IMG/VR virus record: IMGVR_UViG_3300006056_000001
Location: 1-64,000 of that record
Source: a virus
Lineage: Duplodnaviria > Caudoviricetes
Length of the DNA stretch: 64,000 nt
Strand: one strand, 5' to 3'
A model generated the notes under the pieces. The model had not been told where the DNA came from, did not search any database, and was given only the letters and a program-made list of their open reading frames with translations. Each line of letters starts with the position of its first letter. The stretch's first letter is position 1. This document shows positions 54,032 through 64,000 of this stretch, piece after piece. The position numbers and the translations under genes were made by a program.

Positions 54032-54071
54032 ATATAAAATATGGGCTAATTAGATTGCTCTAATTAACCCA
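54032..54071 (-). terminator. Intrinsic terminator after the major tube gene
   Basis: Minus-strand UGGGUUAAUUAGA-GCAA-UCUAAUUAGCCCA (13-bp stem with one G-U, GNRA loop), followed by UAUUUUAUAU. Confidence 0.85.
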
Positions 54072-58074: not shown

Positions 58075-58494
58075 TTATGTCAACTTGACAATACCTTCAG
58101 AATTCCAAGTAATAGAGAAGTCAGCATTAGTTATTGTTTGACTTCCTAAATCTCTGGCTTGTATTAGATAGTTTGTTGCAACAGTTGCACCAGAAACATA
58201 AACAACCATCCATGCTGGGCTACAAGTTATACCTGTAAAAGTAACAGAATGTCCAGTAAGAACACCTTCATTATCTACTGTATCCATGAAAACGCTTGTT
58301 GCATGTACTTTGACTCCCCCTTTAGGGTGTCCTGCAACTACTACGTCTGCACTTATATGCCCTGTATTAGCATGTGTGTCTGCGTTAGGAGTGTATGCAC
58401 CACTAACTAGCATACACATAATGTTAGCTGTTCCTAAATTAATGTTTCCGCTCATTAAGTTAGTTTTAAAATGATTATATACTAAATCTGCCAT
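58075..58494 (-). CDS. Small virion fibre/decoration-type protein (139 aa), paralogue B
   Basis: MADLVYNHFK...MLVSGAYTPN...FSITWNSEGIVKL. Confidence 0.6.
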   Translation of the reverse strand: MADLVYNHFKTNLMSGNINLGTANIMCMLVSGAYTPNADTHANTGHISADVVVAGHPKGGVKVHATSVFMDTVDNEGVLTGHSVTFTGITCSPAWMVVYVSGATVATNYLIQARDLGSQTITNADFSITWNSEGIVKLT

Positions 58495-58925
58495 TATGCA
58501 TCTCCTATCTTCATAATACCATCGGTATTATTCCATGTAATCTGAAGAGTACCGTTTGTAGTACTTACAATACCCATAGAGTTCCAACAAATTAAGTATC
58601 TAGTAGCAGGGGTTGCTCCTGAATACCATAAAACTATGCCTGAGGCTTGATTTATAGTAGTGTTGCTCCAGCTCAAGTCGGCTGCATCAAAAATACTATA
58701 ATTATTAGCTATAGTTAATGTCTTACTACTAAGTAGTTGGCCTCCTGGAGTATATCCTGCTAGGGGGTCAGTTACTTGATATGCACTTACATCGCCTACT
58801 ACAGCGTGTCCTGTGTTTGGAGTATAGCTACCTGACAGCAACATGCCATAGATAGGATCGTTCACCAAGTCAATGGTGCCGCTTAAAAGTAGCTTTTTAA
58901 AGTTATCGTAAACTAAATGTGCCAT
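58494..58925 (-). CDS. Small virion fibre/decoration-type protein (143 aa), paralogue A
   Basis: MAHLVYDNFK...MLLSGSYTPN...FDAADLSW...LQITWNNTDGIMKI. Confidence 0.6.
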   Translation of the reverse strand: MAHLVYDNFKKLLLSGTIDLVNDPIYGMLLSGSYTPNTGHAVVGDVSAYQVTDPLAGYTPGGQLLSSKTLTIANNYSIFDAADLSWSNTTINQASGIVLWYSGATPATRYLICWNSMGIVSTTNGTLQITWNNTDGIMKIGDA

Positions 58926-60319: not shown

Positions 60320-60886
60320 TTAGTTGTCTAATAATGTATCTGGCGCAGTAGAGTTAAAAAGTGCATTTTTTAATGTTTTTATTACTTTTTCTCTATTTTT
60401 ATTTTTTGTTTCTTGTTCAATACAATATCTTAATATTTCTTTTGCACTCCAGTTTCTGTCTATAGATAGTCTTATCAAATTCTTGAATTTTACAATAGAT
60501 GGAGATTTTTGATTAGCTGGATCTAAACCATATTGCTTAATAAAATCAAAGTACTCTTTTAGTACTTCATCTGATCTAGTAAAAGGAGGAATATACTCTT
60601 TTGTATTTAAAACAAGTTCTCCAGTGTCAATAAGGTTTCTTACCATTATTTCTTCTTCATTACTTAAATCAGAAGGAATGACACATGTGAAATTTTTAGG
60701 TCCTAATCTCATTTTACCGCTAGGCAGACCAAAAAAAGTTCTCTTTTCTAGATTAATACTTACGTTTAAATTAGCTATAGGTTTGCTTTCTGTTTTTAAA
60801 CTACCTACTGTAGTAGATACATCTACTGAGTCAATTAACTGATCTACTGTTACTTCTTCAATTTTTTGATTTGTTTTCTTTGGCAT
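60320..60886 (-). CDS. Hypothetical head-associated protein (188 aa)
   Basis: First gene after the structured RNA element; C-terminal EQETKNKNREKVIKTLK motif. Confidence 0.5.
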   Translation of the reverse strand: MPKKTNQKIEEVTVDQLIDSVDVSTTVGSLKTESKPIANLNVSINLEKRTFFGLPSGKMRLGPKNFTCVIPSDLSNEEEIMVRNLIDTGELVLNTKEYIPPFTRSDEVLKEYFDFIKQYGLDPANQKSPSIVKFKNLIRLSIDRNWSAKEILRYCIEQETKNKNREKVIKTLKNALFNSTAPDTLLDN

Positions 60887-60896
60887 ACTATTCTGA

Positions 60897-60933
60897 AATT
60901 AAAATAGAGCCGGTAGGACGACCCCACCGGCCC
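60897..60933 (-). terminator. Intrinsic terminator at the 3' end of the structured RNA element
   Basis: GGGCCGGUGGG-GUCGU-CCUACCGGCUC (11 bp; two G-U pairs set the strand), followed by UAUUUUAAUU. Confidence 0.8.
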
Positions 60934-61040
60934 TGTGATACTGTCAAAGGTAGCGATTCAAAGAACAGTATCGACTTTGCTAGAAGGCTGTTGTCAGCAC
61001 ACTCTAGCACGGTCCACTCAGGGCACGACCTGAGTTTTGT
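60900..61040 (-). ncRNA. Candidate structured RNA or attenuator with four consecutive hairpins; family unknown
   Basis: GC-rich island in the only long intergenic gap. Stems: 61016-61022/61029-61035; 60978-60984/61003-61009 with inner 60987-60990/60995-60998; 60937-60944/60965-60972; 60907-60917/60923-60933. Confidence 0.6.
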
Positions 61041-61043
61041 CTC

Positions 61044-61066
61044 AATATAATTGCGATTCATTTATA
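61044..61066 (-). promoter_or_regulatory. Possible promoter elements upstream of the structured RNA (TATAAAT 61066-61060; TATATT 61049-61044)
   Basis: TATATT lies 8 nt upstream of the first hairpin. No clear -35 box, and the AT-rich background weakens the call. Confidence 0.3.
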
Positions 61067-61076
61067 CTTCGTTTTT

Positions 61077-63974
61077 TTACAAAAAAGTGACAATCACATT
61101 TGTGACAGTTTCTGTCAAATACGAAGTAGCAAAAGCTTGTGAAATTTCTGAATGTACTAGAGCAACAGGTACATTTTCCATTTGTTTATTGCTTCCTGCA
61201 GAAACAGATACGTCTTTTCTAGTCATCCTTACTGGTACAGCAGGTACACTAACACTAGCAGAAATACTAGAAGTAGCAGTAGTTGTGAATGTTGAGGGTC
61301 TTAATATTAAAGAGGAAGATTCTACAGAAGCTTGAGCATTTATACTATTTACAACAATACTTGTAGTAATAGGAGGAATTACAAATGTAGAATGTAAAGG
61401 AGCCAAGTTAAAATAATAAACACTTGTGTCTAATAGATTTTGAACTAAGTAACCTGAGAAACTAAGCAGTATTTCTTCATAGTCTCCGTTGTCTACATTA
61501 TACACATTATGAAAGTAAGTAATAAGATCATTTGCTTTTTGTATAATAGCAGAATTATTAGAATAGAGTCCCAATAGAGCTGCCTCTCTTGCTATTACAG
61601 CATACTGTATTTCAATAGTATTGTAAACGTACCACATTCGGTGGTACTTTAAGTAGTTATATGGATAGTAAGGAGCAGTATAAGTTGTATCTTCCGCGCC
61701 ACTTCTAACATCTCTTTCTTCTTCTGTTAAATGATATCCATTTCCTGCAGAAGGAGAAGCTACTGCACAGGACACGTCTGCTTCAAAATCATACGCTCTT
61801 GTAATTACTACTTCAGATCCAGTTCTAAATCTTACTACATTGCCTACAAAGAACCCTCCTGTTGCATTTTTTAGATGTATTTTAACTGCTCTTAGGTTAT
61901 TGGCGGGAGAGTCTATATATGATAAATATATTTGACCAGATCCGCCTGTTGTTAAATTTGTTACAGTTTGTAAAGCAGGAGTGCCTATAGCAGAAAGAAA
62001 AGATTGTGCTTCTGATTCAGTATTAAAATTTATACTAAAGAACCTTCTATTAGAAGTAGTCCGGCCGTCGTTATAAGCATTCATTGTGCCGTTAGCTGCT
62101 ATATCTCTAGCTATTTCTAGCATTTTTAATCCCTGTGTATCGGAAGGGGATTCATTTAATATAGCTTTAGCGGCAAAATAGAAGCCTAAGCATGTAGCTG
62201 CTTCTTCCCAAGGCCTATAGTGTGTTAATGTATTTAAGCAACCAGGAAGCTCACATGGAGTAAGTCTAGTCATAGCTCTTACTCTTTCTATTCCTCCTGG
62301 ATAAATAGTTTTGTTTAAATATTCTGATCTACTTAAATTTAAGTTATATGTTAGGGCCGTTTTCATCCATGTTTTTAATGGAGCGTATCCGGTAGACTCA
62401 TAAATGAAAGAGCCCCATTCTTGTACACGTCCTGCCGCTCTAGCAGCAAAAGTATAACTATTTACATCAGAAGGGAACCCGCCGTAGTTATCTGATCTGT
62501 TAGCATATATCCAATATCTACTGTACATTTTTAGGAACTCTAGACTAAAATAGTCCATTGTAACTAAAGCTTGTATAACAAATAATTTATTAGTATAGTG
62601 TTCTTTATCAGGACCAAATATTTTCTGATTATTTGGAACTGCTCTTGGAAGGTCATTGTCAGAATCTAGACCTCTATTGAAACCTCTATACTTCTCACCG
62701 TTGTTGGTAAACCACAAGGTACCGTTCCATATCTTACAGCCGGCATTAAAGAATGTATCCGGATCAATTGGTTGTCCTGTAGAGTCTATATACCAATTAT
62801 GACGTGTAGCTTGTTGTCTAGTGCAGAATTCTAAATAAGGTATCCAGTTATAGTTACATGTAGATAAGAAAGGCCATCCTTTCATACCATAGGCATAGTC
62901 TCTATATCCGTGGCTTCCAGCAGAAGCTGTGTCTGGGTTATTACAGTTAGTGGGCCAGTTATAAGGGTCTCTAAGGCCCTTCATAGGCCCTTCTAGGAGG
63001 TTTAATAATGTGTTGCTCCTGGACAGTGCATCTGCATCAGAGGTGATGTAGGAAGGTCTGGGAGGCATTATACCAGTAATTGGGAAGTAGGTCTTCCAAT
63101 TTTCTGACATAGCTAGTATAGGACCGTCTTGCTCTGCTAATGAAGTTGAAGAGCTATTAAAAGTTATAATTCCCTTATAGGCATGTGACATTCCAGCAGC
63201 AAATCTATTTCTTGTGGATATAAAAGGGTTTATAAGAGTATAAGTTCTATCTGTAGCAGAGTTCTCTGTTATAGAAGGTATTTTATACTCTTCCCAGTAA
63301 ATCTTTGACTTACCTCCTAATATTCTAAGGGTTACAGGACTATTTAAATTTACAAAAGGAGAGACGCCTTGGTTATTTTCAAGAGTCGGCTCAAATCTAT
63401 AATAGCCAAATCTAAAATTAAAATGTATAAAGTCTAAATTAGAATATCCATCTAAGACTAGTTCTACCCAAAAATATCTTATTTGTGGATCTAAAGAATT
63501 TGGAAAATACTTGAATAATCTAAGTCTAATAAAATGATCTTCTGGTCCAGATCCTTCTATCACATTACTGACCATTTCATTTAATGGTAAATTATACTGA
63601 ACTCCTTGTATTGTCATTTGCACAAGAAGACTACTAAAATTAGTTACTAACGCATTTGAAAGAACAAAAGGAATAGCCGTGTAAGTAGGACTTTTTGAAA
63701 TATTAACTGTTTTTTCTTCATTCCCTGCTAAATCTACTTTAAAACTTGCTTTTGCATATTTTATACCGCCGTTATCCCATCTAGCTCCTACAGGAGACCA
63801 TTGTATTTTTTGATTACTATTACCAGATAATGCTCCTGAAACAACGAGGTTATCTGTAGTTTGTAAATTTTCTGCTCTAGAAAAAGGTATTCCTAGGGTT
63901 ACTACTCCTGTTCTGGAGTTGGATGAGTTATTTTTTATTTTAGCAGTAGACATAAATGAAATAGGGCCGTCCAT
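61077..63974 (-). CDS. Putative virion polysaccharide-lyase-like protein (RIFT-barrel, PcRGLX/YetA-like N-terminus); true start probably 63953 (MSTAKIK)
   Basis: VTLGIPFSRA...IQWSPVGARWDNGGIKYAKASF matches the VTxGxPF...Q...RWxDGSxKW RIFT-barrel pattern; helical catalytic-type middle region; Ser/Thr/Val-rich C-terminus. The ATG at 63974 lies inside a hairpin stem. Confidence 0.6.
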   Translation of the reverse strand: MDGPISFMSTAKIKNNSSNSRTGVVTLGIPFSRAENLQTTDNLVVSGALSGNSNQKIQWSPVGARWDNGGIKYAKASFKVDLAGNEEKTVNISKSPTYTAIPFVLSNALVTNFSSLLVQMTIQGVQYNLPLNEMVSNVIEGSGPEDHFIRLRLFKYFPNSLDPQIRYFWVELVLDGYSNLDFIHFNFRFGYYRFEPTLENNQGVSPFVNLNSPVTLRILGGKSKIYWEEYKIPSITENSATDRTYTLINPFISTRNRFAAGMSHAYKGIITFNSSSTSLAEQDGPILAMSENWKTYFPITGIMPPRPSYITSDADALSRSNTLLNLLEGPMKGLRDPYNWPTNCNNPDTASAGSHGYRDYAYGMKGWPFLSTCNYNWIPYLEFCTRQQATRHNWYIDSTGQPIDPDTFFNAGCKIWNGTLWFTNNGEKYRGFNRGLDSDNDLPRAVPNNQKIFGPDKEHYTNKLFVIQALVTMDYFSLEFLKMYSRYWIYANRSDNYGGFPSDVNSYTFAARAAGRVQEWGSFIYESTGYAPLKTWMKTALTYNLNLSRSEYLNKTIYPGGIERVRAMTRLTPCELPGCLNTLTHYRPWEEAATCLGFYFAAKAILNESPSDTQGLKMLEIARDIAANGTMNAYNDGRTTSNRRFFSINFNTESEAQSFLSAIGTPALQTVTNLTTGGSGQIYLSYIDSPANNLRAVKIHLKNATGGFFVGNVVRFRTGSEVVITRAYDFEADVSCAVASPSAGNGYHLTEEERDVRSGAEDTTYTAPYYPYNYLKYHRMWYVYNTIEIQYAVIAREAALLGLYSNNSAIIQKANDLITYFHNVYNVDNGDYEEILLSFSGYLVQNLLDTSVYYFNLAPLHSTFVIPPITTSIVVNSINAQASVESSSLILRPSTFTTTATSSISASVSVPAVPVRMTRKDVSVSAGSNKQMENVPVALVHSEISQAFATSYLTETVTNVIVTFL

Positions 63975-63991
63975 AATTAAATGGACGACCC
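63954..63991 (-). terminator. Intrinsic terminator of the gene upstream of the window edge
   Basis: GGGUCGUCCAU-UUAAUU-AUGGACGGCCC (11 bp, one G-U), followed by UAUUUCAUUU. A TAA at 64000-63998 may be the upstream stop. Confidence 0.8.
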
Positions 63992-64000
63992 CGTTAGTTA

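What the first reader, a model, noticed from the sequence alone, without database searches (positions are those of the whole stretch)
60897..61066. Four-hairpin GC-rich RNA element between head and neck genes with a terminator/antiterminator alternative fold
The only long intergenic gap (190 nt) is almost fully base-paired: ACUCAGG-UCGUGC-CCUGAGU; UGCUAGA..GCUG-ACAA-CAGC..UCUAGCA; GAUACUGU-(20-nt loop)-ACAGUAUC; then an 11-bp terminator. GCCCUG in hairpin 1 (61024-61019) is complementary to CAGGGC (60935-60930), which overlaps the terminator 5' arm. An alternative three-way-junction fold could therefore disable termination. I recognise no known family (not tRNA, SRP, 6S or hammerhead). It could be a novel phage sRNA or a switch gating the whole neck-tail operon. 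The rightmost hairpin is followed by TTTT on the plus strand, so a plus-strand RNA is also possible.
Basis: partly seen in the sequence, partly recalled or inferred. Interest (0 to 1): 0.72.

Follow-up and report, generated by a model that had tools for sequence, protein, structure and literature searches.

The report
Translated structured leader RNA with terminator
The gap after the capsid region of this uncultivated 190-kb wastewater phage holds a previously uncatalogued, strongly conserved four-hairpin RNA that a tiny reading frame runs through.

Summary
The 190-nt gap (window 60887-61076, minus strand) folds into four hairpins (z = -5.3). The same element occurs in 15 distinct sequences from related uncultivated phages. 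It always lies directly upstream of orthologues of the 188-aa gene, whose proteins are only 32-43% identical. Covariation is strong: 96.6% of cells are paired and 31 of 40 pairs show compensatory changes. G-U pairs place the RNA on the gene-sense strand. Rfam 15 has no match.

The last hairpin (P4) is a canonical intrinsic terminator.

New here: a short upstream reading frame (uORF; window 61061-60888) is conserved in position in all 14 lineages. Its reading frame relative to the invariant RNA motifs differs, so the peptide is not conserved. It ends 5-12 nt before P4 or runs through it.

Best reading (about 0.45): a cis-acting leader or attenuator in which a ribosome translating the uORF suppresses P4, with hairpins P1-P3 as an unidentified control module. 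A stand-alone small RNA is the main rival. This is a new RNA family of a known general kind, and its function is untested. Other agents of this scan noted similar terminator-gated leaders on other phages' DNA, but not this family.

The parts
61050..61055 (-). Conserved upstream DNA/RNA motif. Its core is C(G/A)CAAT, followed by an A/T-rich TATA(A/T)-like stretch. It is present in the 11 closer lineages. In five relatives (L002, L060, L005, L141, L146) it overlaps the end of the upstream gene (AII-stop; ...ERPAII in four, ...ESAII in L005). In the others it is non-coding. Its role is unknown; a promoter or the uORF initiation region are possible.
   Evidence: it is not repeated elsewhere in the 190-kb genome and is absent in the distant subgroup L164-L166
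60888..61061 (-). Upstream ORF (uORF; 57 codons here, ATG at 61061, TAG at 60890-60888). It runs through P1-P4 and ends 1 nt before the ATG of the 188-aa gene. Its position is conserved but its peptide is not.
61016..61035 (-). P1 hairpin (7 bp here, variable loop)
   Evidence: 5 of 6 modelled pairs with compensatory changes
61010..61015 (-). Invariant single-stranded junction GGACCG between P1 and P2
   Evidence: invariant in all 15 sequences
60978..61009 (-). P2 hairpin with an internal loop. Its tip GCUG-ACAA-CAGC is conserved only in the closer subgroup.
   Evidence: 7 of 13 pairs compensatory; the tip is replaced by GAAA or other loops, or absent, in L138, L141, L143
60937..60972 (-). P3 hairpin (9 bp) with an 18-nt loop. 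The 3' half of the loop is the invariant motif (AUC)GCUACCUU (60954-60947).
   Evidence: (8 of 9 pairs compensatory)
60906..60934 (-). P4, a G+C-rich 12-13-bp hairpin followed by a U-rich tract (60905-60896). It is intrinsic-terminator-like.
   Evidence: 11 of 12 pairs compensatory; hairpin energies of -17 to -22 kcal/mol across the family
60320..60886 (-). The 188-aa gene that always follows the element. Its function is unknown. The family has 113 representative clusters.
   Evidence: confident AF2 model (pLDDT 90) with no informative fold match
63963..63992 (-). T1, the terminator after the major capsid gene. It serves for comparison: it lies 22-36 nt after the capsid stop codon and directly abuts the start of the next gene.

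Best explanation
The element is the cis-acting leader of the operon that begins with the 188-aa gene and runs on through the following structural genes. It is a translated attenuator.

Proposed mechanism:
- Transcripts arrive from upstream, or possibly start at the conserved motif, and enter about 140 nt of RNA that folds into P1-P3 and then the intrinsic terminator P4.
- A short uORF starts 20-30 nt before P1 and is translated through P1-P3.
- Its stop codon lies 5-12 nt before the P4 stem, or beyond P4.
- A ribosome that keeps up with the polymerase therefore sits on or against the 5' arm of P4, prevents the hairpin, and lets transcription continue.
- Untranslated or uncoupled transcripts end at P4.
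- The invariant single-stranded GGACCG and GCUACCUU in the P1-P3 fold are most likely a binding or pausing module that sets how readily the ribosome gets through.

What is shown and what is inferred:
- Shown: the fold, its conservation, its strand, its linkage to the gene, the terminator anatomy, the conserved uORF and its geometry.
- Inferred: that P4 terminates, that the uORF is translated, that translation suppresses P4, and what the invariant motifs bind.
For: Structure:
- 12-sequence model alignment: 96.6% of cells paired, 31 of 40 pairs with compensatory change, 0 of 500 shuffles as good, and only 35-50% paired when partners are slid (7-sequence version).

Linkage to the downstream gene:
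- Every true hit of searches made with RNA patterns alone lies 5-28 nt (closer members) upstream of the ATG of an orthologue of the 188-aa gene.
- Every locus fetched through the protein carries the RNA, including a distant 214-255-aa subgroup.
- The upstream neighbour varies: a 965-aa gene, a 1221-1415-aa gene, or the capsid gene directly.
- The RNA is single-copy in the 190-kb genome.

Terminator:
- P4 fits the terminator consensus, as does T1.
- P4 is kept by 11 of 12 covarying pairs plus a U-tract.

uORF:
- In 12 of 14 lineages exactly one ATG lies just 5' of P1: the only ATG between the upstream motif and P1 in the closer lineages, and the only one within 45 nt of the element in L165 and L166, which lack the motif.
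- That ATG is always in the frame that is open through P1-P3. This is the only open frame in 10 lineages.
- The other two lineages have GTG at the same position.
- The frame relative to GGACCG and GCUACCUU takes at least 5 combinations.
- The chance of frame agreement is about (1/3)^10 x (2/3)^2 if lineages are independent, and no more than about 0.004 counting only five independent frame classes (my calculation).

Geometry:
- The distance from the first base of the stop codon to the P4 stem is 8-15 nt in 8 lineages (spacer 5-12 nt). L166 also stops in the P3 region but was not measured. The frame passes through P4 in 5 lineages.
- The capsid terminator T1 lies 22-36 nt after its stop codon.
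- Published measurements in E. coli show an intrinsic terminator is almost fully repressed when a few bp behind a translated stop codon, and reaches full efficiency only beyond about 27-30 nt (PMC4824070, read).

Weak hint:
- Contigs of three RNA-labelled wastewater libraries run unbroken across P4 into the 188-aa gene. DNA carry-over is not excluded.
Against: - No transcript data with ends are available. The RNA-labelled runs are contigs and may contain DNA.
- No conserved mutually exclusive antiterminator was found. Truncated folds pair the P4 5' arm with different partners in different members.
- The one recurrent option is the invariant C/U-rich loop pairing with the G-rich P4 5' arm. It is weak (-3 to -11 against -17 to -22 kcal/mol) and cannot be tested by covariation.
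- The attenuation model does not by itself explain why P1-P3 and two invariant motifs are so conserved.
- No conserved regulatory codons occur in the uORF.
- Spacers of 10-12 nt are at the edge of a ribosome's reach. The published distance rule comes from E. coli, whereas this host is unknown and its genes mostly lack Shine-Dalgarno sequences (6 of 32).
- The phage encodes its own RNA polymerase-like proteins (earlier notes). Their response to hairpin terminators and to ribosome coupling is unknown.
- A promoter in the gap is not shown: there is no sigma-70-like match, and the motif is unique in the genome.
Confidence: 0.45

Rival explanations
1. A stand-alone small non-coding RNA gene with its own promoter near the CGCAAT motif, about 150-190 nt long and ended by P4. 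It would act in trans. The invariant loop GCUACCUU could be a seed for mRNAs carrying AAGGUAGC, or the fold could bind a protein, in the extreme case as a virion or packaging RNA. The downstream genes would be expressed by leak-through.
For: - The layout is a conserved upstream motif, a compact fold and a strong terminator.
- There is an invariant 8-nt single-stranded loop motif.
- In L006, L143 and L164 the unit sits right after the capsid terminator, as a separate cassette.
- Attenuator-derived RNAs can act in trans (abstract of PMC6614838, listed).
- Depth in RNA-labelled contigs is higher from the element onward than in the 965-aa gene (weak).
Against: - There is no room for a promoter between P4 and the next start codon (5-28 nt), so the operon must be read through P4.
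- The conserved in-frame uORF is unexplained by a pure non-coding RNA.
- The loop motif or its complement is not enriched in the phage genome (5 hits against 8 for the reversed control).
- It is not enriched in 401 genomes sampled from the phylum of a MAG titled Ignavibacteriae.
- No conserved partner lies within 300 nt.
- The upstream motif is missing in the distant subgroup.
Confidence: 0.22
2. A ligand- or protein-sensing riboswitch-like leader. P1-P3 would form an aptamer or operator through the invariant junction and loop nucleotides, and binding would decide whether P4 forms. The binder could be a structural protein such as the 188-aa product, giving autoregulation.
For: - The invariant nucleotides sit in a junction and a loop, while the stems vary by compensation. 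This is the pattern typical of binding pockets or operators.
- A terminator follows immediately.
- The element is strictly linked to one gene family.
- Precedent exists for protein-mediated attenuation (abstract of PMC4538822, listed).
Against: - No conserved alternative pairing links P1-P3 to P4.
- No stem closes the three hairpins into a junction. Only 1-2 weak pairs between the junctions were seen.
- The whole putative aptamer is inside a translated frame, which is unusual for riboswitches.
- The 188-aa protein has no recognisable RNA-binding fold.
Confidence: 0.15
3. A passive module. P4 would be simply a second step-down terminator after the capsid region. P1-P3 would be stabilising or processing hairpins (3'-end protection of the upstream message, an RNase site) without regulated switching. 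The uORF would be only a device that carries ribosomes across the structure.
For: - T1 and P4 share the same design: a hairpin abutting the next start codon.
- They are the two strongest G+C-rich terminator-like sites on the gene strand of the window.
Against: - Stabiliser hairpins do not need an invariant 6-nt junction and 8-11-nt loop motif kept across phages whose flanking proteins are 32-43% identical.
- The element travels with the downstream gene, not the upstream one.
Confidence: 0.12
4. A processive-antitermination RNA of the HK022 put or lambda/rrn nut type. It would modify the polymerase so that it reads through P4 and any signals in the 60-kb operon.
For: - It sits at the head of a very long co-directional operon, just before a terminator.
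- In the closer subgroup the P2 tip reads CUGACAA, which resembles my recollection of the P22 boxB loop.
- In this phage the P3 loop start resembles boxA (9 of 11 to GYTCTTTAANA from PMC5725501).
Against: - Both resemblances fail across the family. The P2 tip is replaced or absent in L138, L141, L143 and L164-L166, and the boxA-like stretch is not conserved.
- The invariant motifs match neither box.
- Translation through the element would strip it from the polymerase.
Confidence: 0.04
5. An ordinary small protein gene (57 aa here) whose mRNA happens to be structured.
For: An ATG-started frame fills the gap exactly.
Against: - The invariant nucleotides are read in all three frames in different members.
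- Peptide lengths range from 30 to 57 aa or more.
- No peptide conservation exists beyond what shared nucleotides give.
- There is no Pfam or PHROG hit.
- Stem changes are compensatory rather than synonymous.
Confidence: 0.02

Closest known systems
Translation-coupled attenuators of E. coli pyrBI and pyrE (leader or upstream ORF ending at or inside an intrinsic terminator). The general stop-codon-to-terminator distance effect was measured by Li et al. (PMC4824070).
   Same: - A short translated frame ends a few nucleotides before, or runs through, an intrinsic terminator that precedes the regulated genes.
- The leader peptide's sequence does not appear to matter.
   Different: - Here the frame runs through three strongly conserved hairpins with invariant junction and loop motifs, which are not a recognised feature of the pyr leaders as I recall them.
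- No U-rich pause logic is conserved.
- The context is a phage structural operon.
- Nothing has been tested experimentally.
Leader-peptide attenuators with antiterminator switches
   Same: The order is uORF, structured leader, intrinsic terminator, operon.
   Different: - No conserved mutually exclusive 2:3-type antiterminator was found.
- No conserved regulatory codons occur.
Lambda late control region (PR' promoter, 194-nt 6S transcript, tR' terminator, Q) and HK022 put RNAs. This comparison is from my own knowledge and from earlier notes of this scan.
   Same: A short terminated leader transcript sits in front of a very long late structural operon, and read-through of the terminator gates that operon.
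   Different: - No Q-like or put-like features were identified.
- This element lies inside the structural module, after the capsid gene, not at its head.
- It is translated.
Candidate cis-regulatory structured RNAs upstream of phage structural genes (GP20 and GP32 motifs, and the 10,006 candidates of PMC10690425)
   Same: A covarying RNA found consistently directly upstream of one phage gene family in IMG/VR contigs.
   Different: - There is no Rfam match.
- Whether this motif is among the 10,006 unpublished-in-Rfam candidates could not be checked, because no supplement is held.

Membership tests
Any Rfam 15 family | Covariance-model score at or near the family threshold | tested here: not met
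   No hit overlaps the element at E <= 10 in the window. There was no hit at all at E <= 1 in six homologous loci.
Intrinsic (Rho-independent) terminator (P4) | G+C-rich stem, short loop, then a U-tract | tested here: met
   13 pairs with 8 G-C, a 3-5-nt loop, and the tail ATTTTAATTT. The hairpin and U-rich tail are kept in all members, with 11 of 12 pairs covarying.
Intrinsic (Rho-independent) terminator (P4) | RNA 3' ends form there in vivo | not testable with these tools
   Only assembled contigs of RNA-labelled runs were available.
Leader-peptide / translation-coupled transcription attenuator | Short ORF in the leader, positioned so that a ribosome can reach the terminator | tested here: met
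   A uORF is present in 14 of 14 lineages (12 with ATG, 2 with GTG). Where measured (8 lineages), its stop lies 5-12 nt before the P4 stem; it runs through P4 in 5.
Leader-peptide / translation-coupled transcription attenuator | Mutually exclusive antiterminator structure (trp/his type) | tested here: inconclusive
   Alternative partners of the P4 5' arm differ between members. Pairing of the invariant loop with P4 is weak and cannot covary.
Leader-peptide / translation-coupled transcription attenuator | Conserved regulatory codons or peptide | tested here: not met
   The frames differ relative to the conserved RNA, and the peptides are unrelated.
Riboswitch | Conserved aptamer closed by a stem, plus an expression platform with alternative pairing | tested here: inconclusive
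   Invariant junction and loop nucleotides exist. No closing stem or conserved switch was found.
nut/put-type processive antitermination RNA | boxA (GYTCTTTAANA-like) and a boxB hairpin, or the put two-stem fold, conserved across members | tested here: not met
   The boxB-like tip and boxA-like stretch are confined to a subgroup or to this phage alone.
Small protein-coding gene | Amino-acid conservation and one conserved frame | tested here: not met
   There are no family hits.
phi29-type packaging RNA | Intermolecular loop-loop complementarity, portal binding, presence in proheads | not tested
   No complementary loop pair was noticed among the invariant loops. The phage has direct terminal repeats. 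There are no virion data.

The most novel reading that the evidence does not exclude
A family of large uncultivated phages would gate the switch from capsid-protein synthesis to the remaining structural genes with a new kind of attenuator. In it, a conserved three-hairpin RNA domain lies inside a translated leader frame, so one stretch is read by ribosomes and also folds into a sensor or operator with invariant GGACCG and GCUACCUU. The terminated leader may in addition act as a small RNA.
Probability: 0.3. Interest if true: 0.7.

Novelty: new variant of a known kind. Interest (0 to 1): 0.56.

Why it matters
Control of late, structural gene dosage in large uncultivated phages is almost unknown. 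Most described leader-peptide attenuators belong to bacterial biosynthetic or resistance operons.

This element offers three things:
- a well-supported new RNA family with a ready covariance model;
- a simple, testable geometry of uORF stop codon against terminator;
- two invariant single-stranded motifs that point to an unidentified binding partner.

If translation-coupled read-through is confirmed, it would show a phage using the host's transcription-translation coupling to set the ratio of capsid to later structural proteins. It would also give a compact regulatory part for hosts that do not use Shine-Dalgarno sequences.

Tried and rejected
The contigs of the Logan-derived homologues P0002-P0005 and of most of the 113 protein representatives could not be fetched.
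- BLAST of the region against GenBank phages found no match.
- The pattern GGACCGTGC..CTGACAAC gave 44 IMG/VR hits. 39 of them were unrelated coding sequence, including one clonal family with 24-nt spacing.
- The pattern GGACCGYGC..TYGCTACCTT gave 10 extra contigs. All were chance hits in G+C-rich coding DNA, and the model found nothing in them.
- The genome-contig scan returned only chance hits, including CPR-bacterium MAGs.
- The upstream motif as a repeated phage promoter: only 3 matches in 190 kb against about 1 for the control.
- The P3 loop motif as a mimic or complement of a conserved host sequence: no enrichment over the reversed control in 401 genomes sampled from the phylum of a MAG titled Ignavibacteriae, nor in the phage itself.
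- From memory, GCUACCUU is complementary to AAGGUAGC near the 3' end of many 16S rRNAs. This was not tested. An 8-mer match in rRNA is not improbable by chance.
- A closing helix between the 5' flank and the 3' tail: duplex energies are no better than shuffles, except weakly in this phage.
- A conserved long-range partner of the loop motif within +/-300 nt: none.
- Resemblances to P22 boxB, boxA, the tRNA T-loop and ops are confined to a subgroup or lie on the wrong strand.
- Function of the 188-aa protein: a 4-sequence AF2 model was poor. The 58-sequence model is confident. Foldseek against PDB and BFVD and VIA-align wide gave only generic helical matches with Z <= 6.5. There was no Pfam or PHROG hit.
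- Sequencing runs: three RNA-labelled wastewater runs hold the stretch only as contigs. Contig ends (61017, 61144, 60943) do not coincide, and depth cannot be ranked. They therefore give no transcript starts or ends.

Full report
**Setting**

The window is the first 64 kb of a 189,716-bp virus record with direct terminal repeats. It is A+T-rich, and nearly all genes lie on the minus strand in one uninterrupted array. The finding lies in the gap 60887-61076. This gap separates a 965-aa gene of unknown family (61077-63953; the conserved start is the second ATG) from a 188-aa gene (60320-60886). The major capsid gene lies just upstream of the 965-aa gene. Its orthologue in related loci matches major-head-protein PHROGs. 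It is followed by a terminator, T1 (63992-63963), that abuts the next start codon.

Yes. The minus-strand RNA folds into four hairpins at -66.6 kcal/mol, with z = -5.3 against dinucleotide shuffles. The plus strand folds less well (z = -4.2). The gap reaches about 49% G+C against about 30% around it. Rfam 15 gives nothing on the element even at E <= 10.

**Homologues**

No GenBank phage matches. A distant relative in IMG/VR (L002) was found through the 965-aa protein, which is 38-49% identical. It carries the same element between the orthologous genes. Scans with conserved RNA patterns, and searches through the 188-aa protein, gave 15 distinct sequences:
- the window;
- L059, a near-identical relative;
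- L002, L060, L005, L006, L008;
- L138, L141, L143, L145, L146;
- L164, L165, L166.

Many other pattern hits were chance matches in coding DNA and were discarded. The genome holds one copy.

**Structure**

A covariance model (R1) was used to align 12 sequences.
- 96.6% of cells form standard pairs.
- 31 of 40 pairs have compensatory double changes.
- No shuffle out of 500 reaches any of these measures.
- Pairing falls to 35-50% when partners are slid by 1-3 columns.
- Every helix is supported: P1 5 of 6 pairs, P2 7 of 13, P3 8 of 9, P4 11 of 12.
- This alignment was fitted to the model. A MAFFT alignment made without the model already gave 20 of 42 pairs with compensatory change.
- 53 G-U cells make the gene-sense strand the folded one: 96.6% paired against 86.9% on the opposite strand.

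Invariant in all members:
- the junction GGACCG;
- the P3 loop motif GCUACCU(U), usually AUCGCUACCUU.

A conserved G-C pair lies near the base of P2, and two adenines follow P2 in the 12 aligned sequences.

The P2 tip GCUG-ACAA-CAGC is invariant only in the closer subgroup. It is replaced or missing elsewhere.

**Linkage**

The element always lies directly upstream of the ATG of an orthologue of the 188-aa gene (5-28 nt in the closer members).
- Every true RNA-pattern hit has the gene.
- Every locus fetched by the protein has the RNA.
- The upstream neighbour differs. It is a 965-993-aa gene, a 1221-1415-aa version, or the capsid gene and its terminator directly, as in L006 and L143.

The element therefore belongs to the downstream gene or operon. 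The large upstream gene is a variable insert.

The 188-aa family has 113 representative clusters. A confident model (pLDDT 90) finds no informative fold match, so the gene's role is unknown.

**The terminator and the proposed switch**

P4 fits the intrinsic-terminator consensus, like T1. Together with one A+T-rich hairpin at 54071-54042, these are the only strong terminator-like sites on the gene strand of the window.

However, it appears only in the window and its near-identical relative, with a broadly similar P1 5'-arm pairing in L008. Elsewhere the P4 5' arm pairs with the junction, with P3 or with nothing.

If the P3 5' arm is masked, the invariant C/U-rich loop can pair with the G-rich base of P4 in most members. 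This pairing is worth only -3 to -11 kcal/mol, against -17 to -22 for P4. Because the motif never varies, covariation cannot test it. A conserved RNA switch is therefore not shown.

**A conserved upstream reading frame**

The gap is also an ATG-started frame of 57 codons (61061-60888), ending 1 nt before the next ATG.

Across the family:
- Exactly one ATG lies just 5' of P1 in 12 of 14 lineages: the only ATG between the upstream motif and P1 in the closer lineages, and the only one within 45 nt of the element in L165 and L166, which lack the motif.
- That ATG always opens the frame that is free of stops through P1, P2 and the P3 loop.
- In the 11 closer lineages the other frames carry 1-4 stops each (0 in one frame of L138).
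- The two remaining lineages have GTG at the same position.
- The frame relative to GGACCG and to GCUACCUU takes at least five combinations, so the peptide is not conserved while the RNA is.
- Agreement of the ATG with the open frame by chance is about 7e-6 if lineages are independent. It is no more than about 0.004 if only five frame classes are counted (my calculation).

The frame ends in or just after the P3 loop in nine lineages. In the eight that were measured, 5-12 nt separate the stop codon from the P4 stem. It runs through P4 towards the next start codon in five. By contrast T1 lies 22-36 nt after the capsid stop codon.

Li et al. measured in E. coli that an intrinsic terminator is nearly silent when a few bp behind a translated stop codon. 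It reaches full strength only beyond about 27-30 nt (PMC4824070).

**Interpretation**

The best-supported reading is a translated leader or attenuator. P4 stops transcripts that are not closely followed by a ribosome on the uORF. The P1-P3 domain, with its invariant motifs, modulates this through a partner not yet known.

This reading accounts for the linkage to the downstream gene, the absence of promoter space after P4, the uORF and its geometry. It does not explain the invariant motifs. It rests on inference for every functional step.

The main rival is a stand-alone small RNA, possibly a by-product of attenuation that also acts in trans. Riboswitch-like, passive, nut/put-like and protein-gene readings are weaker, for the reasons listed under the rival explanations.

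RNA-labelled wastewater libraries hold the region only as contigs. These bridge P4 and are deeper downstream than in the 965-aa gene, which is at most a weak hint.

**Novelty**

- No Rfam family matches, in the window or in six homologous loci.
- A 2023 survey predicted about 10,000 candidate structured RNAs in IMG/VR phages, including some upstream of structural genes (PMC10690425). Its lists are not held, so prior cataloguing cannot be excluded.
- Other agents of this scan noted terminator-gated structured leaders before capsid operons, and leader-peptide attenuators before phage tRNA arrays, on other DNA. None concerns this family.

I rate it a new RNA family and a new variant of a known regulatory kind.

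Noticed in passing
window 63953-63992 (-): The capsid terminator T1 overlaps the first ATG of the listed 965-aa ORF (63974). Conservation in five homologues starts at the second ATG (63953, MSTAKIKN), so the real start lies 10-15 nt after the terminator's U-tract. This is the same hairpin-then-start design as P4 and the 188-aa gene.
   Followed up: partly
window 61077-63953 (-); L006, L143: The large gene between the capsid terminator and the RNA element is variable. It is 965-993 aa, or 1221-1415 aa with an extra C-terminal part ending ...ERPAII, or absent altogether (L006, L143). It behaves like an accessory insert. It has no Pfam or PHROG family.
   Followed up: partly
window 61050-61055 (-) and homologous loci: The motif CGCAAT(A/T/C)AT.TA upstream of the element is conserved both where it encodes the last residues and stop of the upstream gene and where it is non-coding. 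It is either a functional signal (promoter or uORF initiation region) or a retained remnant of the lost gene end.
   Followed up: partly
window 60916-60925 and 63983-63992: The 10-mer GGGGUCGUCC is shared by T1 and P4, as another first-reader note says. The P4 tip G(G/A)GUCGU(C/U)C with a GUCGU loop recurs in L002, L005, L008 and L138, but not in the rest of the family.
   Followed up: partly
window 54042-54071 (-): A 13-bp A+T-rich terminator-like hairpin with a U-tract lies in the 62-nt gap between the 228-aa and 252-aa genes. It is the only other strong terminator-like site on the gene strand downstream of P4.
   Followed up: no
window, 32 gene starts: Only 6 of 32 genes have a Shine-Dalgarno-like sequence. 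Most starts follow A-rich, unstructured sequence (..AAUAA/UA AUG). This would fit a host that does not rely on Shine-Dalgarno pairing (Bacteroidota-like), but that is inference only.
   Followed up: partly
window 58075-58925 (-): Two adjacent paralogous genes (139 and 143 aa) both match phrog_644, of unknown function. The same pair is present in L002, L005 and L008.
   Followed up: no
window 60376-60411: In the RNA-labelled runs, many very short contigs with poly-T loose ends pile up on an A/T-rich stretch inside the 188-aa gene. This is probably low-complexity cross-mapping.
   Followed up: no
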